A stretch of 63,224 nt of DNA, counting the filler, from Collodictyon triciliatum (taxonomy: Eukaryota), in the NCBI GenBank assembly GCA_043381765.1. It is 50 parts of 50 records of this genome, joined end to end, with 100 filler letters (N's around TTAATTAATTAA, not from the genome) between each part and the next. Parts side by side here need not be neighbours in the genome. Positions count along the whole stretch, not along the records: positions 57,022 to 58,182 come from JBHJMP010012033.1; 49 more parts are not named here. The stretch is one strand, 5' to 3'. The position numbers were made by a program, and so were the translations under genes. Under the pieces are notes generated by a model, which was not told where the DNA came from, did not search any database, and was given only the letters and a program-made list of their open reading frames with translations. Below, piece after piece: positions 57,411 through 58,182 of this stretch. The stretch's first letter is position 1; each line of letters begins with the position of its first letter.

Positions 57411-58182
57411 ATGTCCGATGGTGGTGACTTACCCTTGGATGAGCTACTAGACCTTATCAGAGATTGTGACTTCGAGACGATAGCAAGTCGACGGGCACCT
57501 GATCTCCAATACAGGGAACTAATTTCTATCCCGAATGAGATCTTTTTATATACCCACTGGACAGAATTGTGGCTTGGTGGCAATGAGCTGTCATCACTAC
57601 CTGCACAAATATCGTGTTTGACTGGTCTTACATATCTTGATGTTGCTGTCAATAAGCTGTCATCCCTACCTGCACAAATATCCTGTTTGACTGGTCTCAG
57701 TGTACTTTATGTTTATGACAATAAGCTGTCATCACTACCTCCACAAATATCGTGTTTGACTGGTCTCATAGAACTTTATGTTTATAACAATCAACTGTCA
57801 TCGCTACCTGAACAAATATCGTGTTTGACTGGTCTTAGTATACTTGTTGTATTCAGTAATCCGGTATGTCTTTATTCATATATTATATTACTATTTATGT
57901 TTAAAAGATAATGACTGACAACGATACACGCAGATGGAGGAGCTTCCGCCAGAAATCACAGCACTCACAAATCTGAAAAGACTCTATATCCAAAATGGTG
58001 AAGGCCAAATTATAATAAAGAGGGCCCCGCGTGGCATCTCAAATCTCCCCTGCTGGGACAACACAGAAGACGAGTATGGCGGGATTAGCTTTGCTGACGC
58101 CCTCAGAAAGCTGGAGCTGTATGATGCAGAGAATAGACCAGCAGTAAAAACCCCTGCTAAAAACACGCTTGCTGCTGGCAGT
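57411..58182 (+). CDS. LRR protein copy B: N-cap + four full 69-bp LRR units + C-cap; exons 57411-57863 and 57934->58182
   Basis: Units of (xxLxVxx)NKLSSLPAQISCLTGL; 70-nt phase-0 intron shared with copy A. Confidence 0.92.

What the first reader, a model, noticed from the sequence alone, without database searches (positions are those of the whole stretch)
57561..57863. LRR gene built from 69-bp units with a constant 48-bp backbone and a hypervariable 21-bp concave-face block: candidate VLR-like diversified receptor in a protist
Seen: each unit is a near-invariant AATAAGCTGTCATCACTACCTGCACAAATATCGTGTTTGACTGGTCTY (NKLSSLPAQISCLTGL) plus a 21-bp block at 57561, 57630, 57699, 57768 and 57837. 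These blocks encode TELWLGG, TYLDVAV, SVLYVYD, IELYVYN and SILVVFS; paralog A adds KALGLGF and TELSVHT. Only the structural L and V/L positions are kept. The last variable block is 8/21 identical between A and B, yet the intron 6 nt away is 67/70 identical. Established: the xxLxLxx positions form the ligand-binding concave beta-sheet of LRR solenoids, and they are the diversified positions in lamprey VLRs and plant NLRs. Inference: this family encodes a recognition repertoire (immunity, prey/symbiont or self recognition) under strong localised diversification.
Basis: partly seen in the sequence, partly recalled or inferred. Interest (0 to 1): 0.85.

Follow-up and report, generated by a model that had tools for sequence, protein, structure and literature searches.

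The report
Expanded LRR gene family in a protist
Two copies of a small leucine-rich-repeat gene from a freshwater protist have near-identical repeat backbones and very different binding-face residues, a pattern that is real but also appears in unrelated LRR genes and shows no sign of lamprey-style antibody-like assembly.

Summary
At 57561-57857 there are five 21-bp blocks separated by four 48-bp backbones, and the block peptides, the 8/21 figure and the 67/70 intron identity are all as stated. The window is 50 unrelated short contigs glued by N linkers. "Paralogs A and B" are two separate ~1.16-kb contigs.

The genes encode small LRR proteins of the SHOC2/RSU1/ROCO type with 23-residue units and no signal-peptide-like N-terminus. 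A family-specific terminal module (RAPRGI[ST]NLPCW...LYD) has its only full-length named relatives in the Diphylleia rotans transcriptome. There it is fused to kinase, Roc-COR, RING or NYN domains.

Binding-face codons change about 4 times faster than synonymous sites. Four unrelated LRR genes give ratios of 1.8-5.1 by the same measure, so this signal is generic.

The more unusual feature is mosaicism between the two copies. The 5' flank (93%) and intron (96%) are conserved, while the N-terminal 50 codons are saturated at synonymous sites. This points to segmental exchange within a multi-copy, probably transcribed family.

Both copies are intact germline genes, so VLR-like assembly is unsupported. 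Verdict: a new member of a known kind, of modest interest.

The parts
57022..57410 (+). Copy B: conserved non-coding 5' flank. It starts at the contig edge and contains a TATAAAA about 85 nt upstream of the ATG.
   Evidence: 346 of 371 aligned bases (93.3%) are identical to the flank of copy A. One- and two-base indels between A and B break the 103-codon ORF listed there. Many contigs of runs X1 and X2 lie on it; 12 contigs of X2 overlap 57256-57268.
57411..57560 (+). Copy B exon 1, first 50 codons: acidic N-terminal cap helix plus a degenerate first LRR (LQYRELISIPNEIFLYTHW).
   Evidence: Translation. Against copy A, pS is 0.81 and pN 0.45, and only 5 of 16 identical residues use the same codon. 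The B-type sequence recurs at 96-98% identity in runs X1 and X4 (records 5 and 25).
57561..57857 (+). Copy B LRR array: five 21-bp beta-strand blocks (57561, 57630, 57699, 57768, 57837) alternating with four 48-bp backbones (57582, 57651, 57720, 57789).
   Evidence: AF2 places strands on block positions 2-4.
57864..57933 (+). Copy B intron 1 (70 nt, GTATGT...CAG, phase 0).
   Evidence: Frame continuity. It is 67/70 identical to A's intron. Contigs in X1 and X2 join exon 1 to 57933/57934 without it (table 5).
57934..58182 (+). Copy B exon 2: a diverged LRR (MEELPPEITALTNL), a terminal LRR, and the family-specific cap module KRAPRGISNLPCW...FADALRKLELYD. It is open to the contig end.
   Evidence: phmmer gives 101 hits, including short NCBI ORFs at 57-68% identity and Diphylleia proteins.
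26133..26506 (-). Copy A: conserved 5' flank.
25872..26132 (-). Copy A exon 1 (87 codons): N-cap, diverged unit TFLELNF+KNLSSVPPGVFLLTGL, unit KALGLGF+NKLSSLPAQISCLTGL, and last block TELSVHT + NP.
25802..25871 (-). Copy A intron 1 (70 nt).
25604..25801 (-). Copy A exon 2 (66 codons): terminal LRR plus cap module.
25540..25603 (-). Copy A inferred intron 2 (GTAAGC...CTCTAG, 64 nt).
   Evidence: Inferred from GT..AG ends and frame continuity. Homologous short ORFs also end just after LYD and run into V-starting (GT) read-through.
25411..25539 (-). Copy A exon 3 start: charged (AEEAKK/R)n low-complexity tail that runs off the contig.
   Evidence: TRF finds period 18/36 at 25411-25524. No Pfam hit.

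Best explanation
A and B are two germline members of a lineage-specific, multi-copy family of small cytosolic LRR proteins of the SHOC2/RSU1/ROCO type. The organism is a freshwater protist related to Diphylleia (CRuMs).

The 69-bp periodicity comes from recent tandem duplication of one 23-residue LRR unit by unequal crossing-over or slippage within the backbone. B carries four near-identical units and A carries one.

After duplication, the 16-residue convex/loop part stays under purifying selection (dN/dS about 0.2). The five solvent-exposed beta-strand positions diverge fast. This happens in LRR arrays generally, because the concave face is the aperiodic ligand-binding surface.

Between paralogs the genes are mosaics. 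The promoter/5' flank, the intron, the backbone and parts of exon 2 are young or homogenised. The N-cap and some patches are old. This is best explained by segmental gene conversion or recombination among family members, with breakpoints in the shared sequences.

The LRR+cap module is inferred to act as a protein-binding adaptor or sensor module placed ahead of variable tails. In Diphylleia the same module precedes kinase, Roc-COR, RING and NYN RNase domains.

Shown: the anatomy, the family relationship, the site-specific rates, the mosaicism, and more than one copy in other runs. Inferred: the conversion mechanism, the cytosolic location and the binding function.
For: - **Gene models and units:**
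- **Class:** Pfam LRR_4/LRR_8 pass their cut-offs. The AF2 model has pLDDT 92.9. Its best PDB matches are Leptospira LIC LRR proteins, SHOC2 (TMq 0.85, rmsd 1.8 over 142 columns) and RSU1.
- **Rates in five units:** x codons have pN 0.579. The other 17 codons (leaving out also the N-x-L position) have pN 0.055 and pS 0.212. Unit-wide pS is 0.215. All 10 unit pairs have pN(x) > pS.
- **Synonymous change inside the blocks is not elevated** (pS 0.117 at x codons). The blocks are therefore as young as the backbones.
- **Unit number differs.** A aligns colinearly to the first part of B and lacks three units.
- **Mosaic:** the flank is 346/371 identical and the intron 67/70. In contrast the N-terminal 50 codons have pS 0.81, with 5/16 identical residues sharing a codon, against 39/46 in the three conserved coding modules.
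- **Multi-copy:** 2 of the 50 contigs in the window. 79 contigs of X1 and 119 of X2 lie on B at 80-99% identity. 12 contigs of X2 overlap one flank position. Four kinds of intron-less joints carry other last blocks.
- **Family module:** 101 phmmer hits for exon 2. Source look-ups covered 26 proteins in all, drawn from both the exon-1 search and this one. Of these, 14 are Diphylleia rotans transcripts and 8 are ORFs on unnamed NCBI contigs of 523-734 bp.
- **Fused domains:** kinase, RING, Roc, NYN and Roc-COR.
Against: - Only two gene copies and five well-aligned units are available, so rate estimates rest on about 18 synonymous sites per pair, and units within a gene are not independent.
- Gene conversion is inferred from patchy divergence and was not shown by a recombination test on many copies.
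- Non-coding flanks (6% diverged) are more conserved than synonymous sites even in the conserved coding modules (8 differences in 36.8 sites). Constraint on the flank, or a repeat element, could contribute.
- The short-read contigs of a repeat family might be partly chimeric.
- The C-terminal part of both genes is missing, so the architecture and cellular location are unproven.
- X1 and X2 are labelled RNA only by a guess. The intron-less forms could in principle be retrocopies.
Confidence: 0.6

Rival explanations
1. The family is a dedicated germline recognition repertoire (immunity, prey, symbiont or self recognition) kept diverse by strong diversifying selection on the concave face, like plant R-gene LRRs or Ectocarpus LRR-ROCOs.
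For: - Between A and B at aligned blocks, pN is 0.35-0.52 against pS 0.10-0.18.
- The x-site to synonymous ratio is about 4.4.
- There are at least 19 different blocks on the same backbone: 8 in the window and 11 that I translated by hand from joints and loose ends of runs X1, X2 and X4. No two are alike.
- Relatives fuse the module to signalling or effector domains, namely kinase, Roc-COR, RING and NYN RNase.
- Conserved non-coding DNA around diverged exons is recalled, not tested, as typical of fast-evolving R-gene clusters.
Against: - The same ratio is 1.8-5.1 in four unrelated LRR genes taken as controls, and at least 8 of 10 unrelated database LRR proteins fetched show the same backbone/strand contrast. 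The signal therefore does not single out a repertoire.
- Pooled over all 8 blocks, dN/dS is about 1.1.
- B's N-cap and first unit recur at 96-98% identity in two other runs (records 5 and 25). Individual paralogs therefore look stable.
- All 4 Diphylleia isoforms that cover the LRR region of the closest LRR-cap gene are identical there.
- There is no functional or expression-on-challenge evidence.
Confidence: 0.2
2. VLR-like somatic diversification. Mature genes are assembled or edited in the cell by copy-choice between units, using the 48-bp backbone as homology.
For: - The long near-identical backbone would be suitable homology.
- Many different blocks are joined to the same conserved modules in contigs of X1 and X2.
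Against: - Both window copies are complete ORFs in genomic contigs with promoter-like flank, ATG, contiguous LRRs and a spliceosomal intron. This is unlike the incomplete germline VLR gene.
- No LRRNT/LRRCT caps and no signal-peptide-like N-terminus.
- Units are 23 residues.
- The intron-containing form of another block variant (TYLDVCR + NP + GTAAGC) is present in a DNA-labelled metagenome run (X4 loose end at 57643). That variant therefore appears to exist as genomic DNA.
- No reads of the source organism could be examined.
Confidence: 0.03
3. The conserved flank, intron and exon patches reflect a repetitive or mobile element, or a recent burst of segmental duplication, that carries or abuts the gene. 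They do not reflect gene conversion.
For: - Three other contig pairs in the same window share repeats at 91-92.5% identity, the same level as the A/B flank (92.6% over 376 bp).
- Contig B begins inside the conserved flank.
- Summed contig depth on the flank exceeds that on B's unique N-cap by about 7-22 fold in X1. This is a hint only.
Against: - The similarity runs to within 0-18 nt of the start codon and resumes in the backbone, the intron and exon 2. Independent insertions would therefore have to be position-exact.
- A recent duplication of the whole unit is contradicted by saturated synonymous divergence in the N-cap.
- No transposase or other mobile-element ORF lies on either contig.
Confidence: 0.1
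4. Assembly artefact. The short-read assembler stitched k-mers of several paralogs together, so the unit order and the mosaic are not real.
For: - All contigs are about 1.16 kb and end in repeats.
- The family shares long identical stretches.
Against: - Units within B share no exact stretch longer than about 25 nt by my reading.
- Independent runs bridge the flank/N-cap junction (X4 record 23, 57289-57436) and the N-cap/first-unit junction (X1 record 5, 57413-57607; X4 record 25).
- Both ORFs are intact.
Confidence: 0.07

Closest known systems
SHOC2 / RSU1 / LRRC57-type intracellular LRR proteins, and the structurally similar Leptospira LIC LRR proteins
   Same: The 23-residue unit is LxxLxLxxNxLxxLPxxIxxLxxL. 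Pfam LRR_4 and LRR_8 match. The best fold matches include SHOC2 at TMq 0.85. Database hits are named LRRC57, RSU1 and SHOC2. There is no signal-peptide-like N-terminus.
   Different: Sequence identity is only about 30-40%. The array is much shorter (4-7 units). It has its own terminal cap module RAPRGI[ST]NLPCW...LYD. It is multi-copy, with near-identical units.
Ectocarpus LRR-ROCO candidate receptors (Zambounis et al. 2012, PMC3341825; passages read)
   Same: This is a protist/algal LRR family with high turnover, variation on the concave face and an explicit comparison to VLRs. Diphylleia relatives of the cap module include Roc-COR proteins.
   Different: In Ectocarpus each LRR is a separate 72-nt exon that gets shuffled. 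Here 4-5 units of 69 nt are contiguous in one exon. A Roc-COR domain is not shown for A or B because the contigs end.
Lamprey/hagfish variable lymphocyte receptors
   Same: Variability is concentrated in beta-strand x positions on a constant LRR scaffold. VLR structures appear among the fold matches at ranks 10-11, TMq 0.71-0.74.
   Different: No incomplete germline gene, no LRRNT/LRRCT, no signal peptide or stalk, and 23- rather than 24-residue units. The fold match is generic to LRRs.
Consensus-like tandem LRR arrays in unrelated organisms (metagenome loci L001-L004; proteins P0005, P0006, P0007, P0010, P0017, P0020, P0031, P0044)
   Same: Each has a constant N[QK]L[ST]SLPxxIGxLTxL backbone with variable TxLxLxx strands. 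Block nucleotide divergence is 0.40-0.43 against backbone 0.16-0.24. The x-site pN / pS ratio is 1.8-5.1.
   Different: They are not homologous beyond the LRR class (<=47-56% identity). The window's backbone is more uniform (0.09 divergence) and the family has conserved non-coding flanks.
Plant R-gene / receptor-like LRR clusters that evolve by sequence exchange (recalled from memory, not tested here)
   Same: Chimeric paralogs, hypervariable solvent-exposed LRR residues and well-conserved non-coding DNA.
   Different: No NB-ARC, TIR or kinase domain is seen on these contigs. The LRR class and the lineage differ.

Membership tests
Variable lymphocyte receptor (VLR) system | Incomplete germline gene completed by insertion of flanking LRR cassettes | tested here: not met
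   Both copies are intact ORFs from the ATG through contiguous LRR units into exon 2.
Variable lymphocyte receptor (VLR) system | Signal peptide, cysteine-rich LRRNT and LRRCT caps, stalk/GPI | tested here: not met
   The N-termini MSDGGDLPLDELLD and MSDCLTPAQVDALMEE are acidic and not hydrophobic. Pfam gives no LRRNT/LRRCT hit at E<=0.1. The C-terminus is not on the contig.
Variable lymphocyte receptor (VLR) system | Somatic variation between cells of one individual or clone | not testable with these tools
   No whole genome is held. No run holds more than 21% of the words. Only assembled contigs of other runs could be laid.
Variable lymphocyte receptor (VLR) system | Sequence variability concentrated on concave beta-strand x positions | tested here: met
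   It is equally met by unrelated control LRR genes.
SHOC2/RSU1/ROCO-type 23-residue LRR class (Pfam LRR_8 / LRR_4) | Pfam LRR models above the gathering score and a 23-residue LxxLxLxxNxLxxLPxxIxxLxxL unit | tested here: met
   LRR_4 scores 65.8 bits (cut-off 27) and LRR_8 43.3 bits (cut-off 27). Unit table.
SHOC2/RSU1/ROCO-type 23-residue LRR class (Pfam LRR_8 / LRR_4) | Curved solenoid fold superposable on SHOC2 | tested here: met
   The model has pLDDT 92.9. It matches 7tvg with TMq 0.85 and rmsd 1.8 over 142 columns.
ROCO proteins (LRR-Roc-COR) | Roc GTPase and COR domains C-terminal to the LRR | not testable with these tools
   Both contigs end 40-80 codons after the LRR cap. Diphylleia proteins with the same cap module do carry them: P0114 has Roc and COR-A, and P0133 has Roc.
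Ectocarpus-type exon-shuffled LRR receptors | One LRR per exon, with shuffled or inactivated LRR exons in introns | tested here: not met
   Units B1-B4 are contiguous in one 453-nt exon. The single intron in the array is 70 nt and holds no LRR.
NLR (NB-ARC/NACHT-LRR) | Nucleotide-binding domain N-terminal to the LRR | tested here: not met
   The LRR starts about 30 residues after the ATG and no NB-ARC/NACHT hit was found.
Diphylleid 'LRR + RAPxGI[ST]xLPCW cap' family (unnamed, defined here) | Terminal module [MI]EELPxxITxL..L..L.I....G....[KQ]RAPxGI[ST]xLPCW ... L.KL.LY[DE] after the LRR array | tested here: met
   It is present in A and B, in 8 short ORFs on NCBI contigs and in Diphylleia rotans proteins.

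The most novel reading that the evidence does not exclude
The diphylleid lineage (CRuMs, a deep and little-studied eukaryote supergroup) has its own expanded set of intracellular LRR sensors. One LRR+cap recognition module, kept exchangeable between loci by homogenised non-coding scaffolds and a uniform repeat backbone, is combined with kinase, Roc-COR, RING, NYN RNase or simple tails. It would serve as a germline-diversified innate recognition repertoire for prey, parasites or viruses, and so be an independent invention of an R-gene-like system.
Probability: 0.15. Interest if true: 0.6.

Novelty: new member of a known kind. Interest (0 to 1): 0.3.

Why it matters
If the family is a recognition repertoire, it would add a CRuMs example to the independent LRR-based systems of plants, jawless fish and brown algae. 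It would also give a compact model of about 150 residues for how LRR specificity is diversified.

As it stands, the finding mainly documents a lineage-specific LRR family with a distinctive cap module and mosaic paralogs. It also shows that the eye-catching constant-backbone, variable-strand pattern is a general property of young LRR arrays. That is a useful caution for similar first-stage findings.

Tried and rejected
- **Whole genome:** none is held for this window, so genome-wide copy counts were impossible.
- **Earlier findings of the scan:** nothing by place, sequence or words.
- **Metagenome scan with the exon-2 alignment:** 154 pattern matches, 0 confirmed.
- **Metagenome scan with the exon-1 alignment:** 224 pattern matches and 13 loci, all generic LRRs at <=47% identity. 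They were used only as controls.
- **Word-index search with exon 1:** 102 hits among 1737 candidates. The best identities were 46-59%, and none of the 15 fetched has the family backbone.
- **Profile of ten exon-2 sequences:** it returned only 7 of its own rows and no new member.
- **Rfam on the whole window:** 0 matches.
- **Taxonomy through a Cys-rich membrane protein of another contig:** 2 weak unnamed hits, uninformative.
- **Single-sequence AF2:** pLDDT 57.1, discarded for the alignment-based model.
- **A SAM domain in Diphylleia tails:** sub-threshold in P0120 (19 bits against a cut-off of 23) and absent in P0229, so not claimed.
- **An ORF in the 5' flank (57025-57336):** rejected as coding because A and B differ by 1- and 2-base indels there.
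- **Depth tables:** not used as copy number or expression level. Parts of the stretch without cover in X2, X4 and X12 are not interpreted.
- **Small word shares in freshwater metagenome runs:** not used to name a habitat.
- **The spliced full-length protein:** it could not be submitted to the tools, so all searches and folds used single exons. This leaves the junction LRR (SILVVFSNP|MEELP...) unmodelled.
- **Supplementary files of the papers:** not seen.
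Full report
**1. What the window is**

The 63,224-base window is not one locus. It consists of 50 contigs of 1160-1175 bp, sorted by length and joined by N-TTAATTAATTAA-N linkers. 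Most contigs end in microsatellites. No whole genome is held. The finding lies on contig 57022-58182 ("B").

**2. Checking the observation**

- TRF reports a 69-bp period at 57574-57835 (3.8 copies, 85% matches).
- The backbone pattern occurs 4 times at <=3 mismatches, against 0.00 expected.
- The five blocks sit at the stated coordinates and encode the stated peptides. A contributes KALGLGF and TELSVHT, plus a more diverged unit TFLELNF+KNLSSVPPGVFLLTGL.
- The last blocks of A and B share 8/21 bases, and the intron 6 nt away is 67/70 identical.

- The backbones differ at 3-7 of 48 bases, and 22% of their synonymous sites differ.
- A lacks three units relative to B, so which blocks are positional homologues is ambiguous. 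A's last block matches B's fourth block at 15/21.
- The two copies are on separate contigs.

**3. Gene models**

*Copy B*
- The ATG is at 57411. Exon 1 ends at 57863 (151 codons).
- Intron 1 is 70 nt (GTATGT...CAG).
- Exon 2 starts at 57934 and is open to the contig end.

*Copy A*
- The ATG is at 26132. Exon 1 ends at 25872 and the intron ends at 25802.
- Exon 2 is 25801-25604. An inferred second intron spans 25603-25540.
- Exon 3 encodes an (AEEAKK/R)n tail that runs off the contig.

*Both copies*
- The N-termini are acidic and helical, with no hydrophobic signal-like stretch.
- Pfam finds only LRR models: LRR_4 at 3e-18, LRR_8 at 3.2e-11, and no LRRNT/LRRCT.

*Evidence for the intron*
- Contigs of runs X1 and X2 join exon 1 to position 57933/57934 with the intron missing. 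They carry other last blocks followed by AA[TC]CC (tables 5 and 5c).
- The RNA label of these two runs is only a guess. The intron-less forms are consistent with spliced transcripts but not proof of them.

**4. Structure and class**

With a 50-sequence alignment, AlphaFold2 gives a confident solenoid (pLDDT 92.9, pTM 0.87). The single-sequence model was poor (57.1). Strands fall at residues 52-54, 75-77, 98-100, 121-123 and 144-146, which are positions 2-4 of each 7-residue block.

Foldseek's best PDB matches are Leptospira LIC LRR proteins, SHOC2 (TMq 0.85, rmsd 1.8 over 142 columns) and RSU1. VLRs appear only at ranks 10-11, as any LRR would. Named sequence hits are LRRC57, RSU1, SHOC2 and similar proteins. 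This is the intracellular 23-residue LRR class.

**5. Is the constant-backbone, variable-strand pattern special?**

*In the window gene*
- In the five well-aligned units (B1-B4 and A2), the five x codons of the block have pN 0.579.
- The remaining codons are conserved: pN 0.055 over 17 codons (N-x-L position also left out) or 0.069 over 18.
- Unit-wide pS is 0.215. The Jukes-Cantor ratio is about 4.4, and in all 10 pairs pN(x) exceeds pS.
- Synonymous change inside the blocks is not raised (pS 0.117 at x codons; the structural L and V codons are mostly identical). The blocks are therefore not older cassettes. The excess is specifically amino-acid changing.

*In controls*
- At least 8 of 10 unrelated database LRR proteins that I fetched show the same design: a constant NQLSSLPAEIGQLTNL with a variable TxLxLxx.
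- In four unrelated LRR genes from metagenome contigs (L001-L004), the identical calculation gives ratios of 3.0, 5.1, 3.8 and 1.8. Block against backbone nucleotide divergence is 0.40-0.43 against 0.16-0.24. In the window gene it is roughly 0.51 against 0.09.
- With all 8 blocks of the window pooled, block dN/dS is about 1.1.

The pattern is a somewhat sharper instance of something general to young tandem LRR arrays. On its own it does not indicate an immune-type repertoire.

**6. What is less ordinary: mosaic paralogs**

Comparison of A with B:

| Region | Result |
|---|---|
| 5' flank | 346/371 identical (93.3%) |
| Intron | 67/70 identical |
| First shared backbone | pS 0.23 |
| Exon 2 patch MEELP..KRL | pS 0.24 |
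| Exon 2 patch KRAPRGISNLPCW.NTE | pS 0.18 |
| First 50 codons | pS 0.81, pN 0.45; 5 of 16 identical residues use the same codon |
| Three conserved coding modules together | 39 of 46 identical residues use the same codon |
| Exon 2 patch FADALRKLELYD | pS 0.59, pN 0.07 |

Positive selection on point mutations cannot saturate synonymous sites next to 93-96% identical non-coding DNA. The segments must therefore have different ages. I infer segmental gene conversion or recombination among family members, with junctions in the shared sequences. The unit-number difference between A and B points to unequal crossing-over in the backbone.

A repeat-element contribution to the flank cannot be excluded. 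Three other contig pairs in the window share repeats at 91-92.5%, and the flank is more conserved than synonymous sites of the conserved modules (28/441 against 8/36.8 differences).

**7. Family size and relatives**

- Two of the 50 contigs belong to the family.
- On B, 79 contigs of run X1, 119 of X2, 10 of X4 and 4 of X12 could be laid at >=80% identity. Identities spread from under 90% to over 99%.
- 12 contigs of X2 overlap one flank position.
- Both A-type and B-type N-caps are attached to the same flank in X1 and X4.
- From joints and loose ends of that call I translated 11 further blocks by hand: TYLDIFL, TYLDVES, TCFGVYA, IELYVSD, TLLGVSV, ISLDIYL, KELWLGG, KRLDIKS, TLLGISN, TRLYFRE and TYLDVCR. 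With the 8 in the window that makes 19, no two alike. Position 5 is hydrophobic in all, and position 3 is L in 18 of 19.
- These blocks come from other organisms or communities, and many rows of that output were not shown. The figure is therefore a lower bound on family diversity, not a per-genome count.
- B's own N-cap plus first unit recurs at 96-98% identity (records 5 and 25). This argues that individual paralogs are stable.

**8. The cap module and the organism**

- Exon 2 searched against 1.84 billion representatives gave 101 hits with E<=1e-3.
- The ones covering the whole module are short ORFs at 57-68% identity and longer proteins at about 40-45%.
- I looked up 26 proteins in all, taken from both the exon-1 search and this one. 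Fourteen are Diphylleia rotans transcripts in EukProt. Eight are ORFs on unnamed NCBI contigs of 523-734 bp. One is a generic plant LRR and three are unnamed others.
- In Diphylleia the LRR+cap module stands in front of the following domains:
  - protein kinase: P0125, P0130
  - RING: P0127
  - Roc: P0133
  - Roc-COR: P0114
  - NYN RNase: P0163
  - a second LRR+cap module: P0115, P0116, P0119, P0120
- A profile search of the 90%-clustered collection found no further short members.
- All 4 Diphylleia isoforms that cover the LRR region of the closest LRR-cap gene are identical there.
- The source organism is therefore probably a diphylleid or a relative. This is an inference from similarity only.
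- A full-text search found 0 papers containing both "Diphylleia rotans" and "leucine-rich repeat".

**9. Comparison with known systems**

The idea that a protist or algal LRR family under diversifying selection on the concave face resembles VLRs is already in print for Ectocarpus LRR-ROCO genes (PMC3341825). I read passages of that paper through a term search and saw the follow-up PMC11378527 only as a search listing. There each LRR is a separate 72-nt exon, whereas here the units are contiguous.

The defining features of VLRs that could be tested are not met: an incomplete germline gene, Cys-rich caps, a signal peptide and 24-residue units. Somatic variation could not be tested.

**10. Verdict**

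This is a real, correctly described repeat architecture in a real gene that is probably transcribed. The most likely reading (0.6) is a germline, lineage-specific multigene family of SHOC2/ROCO-type LRR adaptor or sensor modules. It evolves by unit duplication, segmental exchange and fast change of binding-face residues. A dedicated recognition repertoire remains possible (0.2). VLR-like somatic assembly is unlikely (0.03). The finding is a new member of a known kind, with interest 0.3.

Noticed in passing
window 1-63224: The window is an artificial concatenation of 50 contigs of 1160-1175 bp, sorted by length and joined by N-TTAATTAATTAA-N linkers. Nearly every contig begins or ends in a microsatellite. 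Distances and neighbourhoods across linkers are meaningless.
   Followed up: yes
window 17798-18966 vs 26678-27844; 43130-44294 vs 8899-10068; 49451-50612 vs 54499-55660: Three further contig pairs share 400-520-bp repeats at 91-92.5% identity, the same level as the LRR genes' 5' flank. The pair 43130/8899 carries a related long ORF (...VKF.ASELSKV.KK...) with no Pfam hit. These may be dispersed repeat families of one age class.
   Followed up: partly
window 7630-8796 (+): A whole-contig ORF of at least nine WD40 repeats (Pfam WD40 4e-85) with fairly uniform repeat units. This is another tandem-repeat protein that could be examined for the same backbone / variable-position pattern.
   Followed up: no
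window 16529-17695 (+): A whole-contig ORF with a Cys-rich N-terminal region (weak DUF7630 hit, 21.9 bits, below the cut-off of 27) followed by several hydrophobic stretches. The only database relatives are two weak unnamed ones.
   Followed up: partly
window 20336-21151: An 18-bp tandem repeat (TGGACTTCTTGCGCTTCT, 46 copies, 80% matches) fills most of one contig and is open in several frames on both strands.
   Followed up: no
window 25411-25539 (-): Copy A continues after an inferred second intron into a perfect 36-bp-period repeat encoding (AEEAKRAEEAKK)n, a charged helix-like tail. Copy B has an unrelated tail after the same LYD motif.
   Followed up: partly
window 57394-57413 vs 26132: Copy B has 18 extra bases between the conserved '...tctgtccagAT' and 'GTCCGA'. 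They destroy the A-type ATG (it becomes ATT) and create a new in-frame ATG 18 nt downstream. A-type junctions are seen in runs X1 and X4 (loose ends at 57394).
   Followed up: partly
window 28173-29006 (-) and 13118-13600 (-): An SPX-domain N-terminus (5.1e-18) and a PHO80-like cyclin fragment (8.5e-07) lie on two other contigs. Both are ordinary eukaryotic genes read with the standard genetic code.
   Followed up: no
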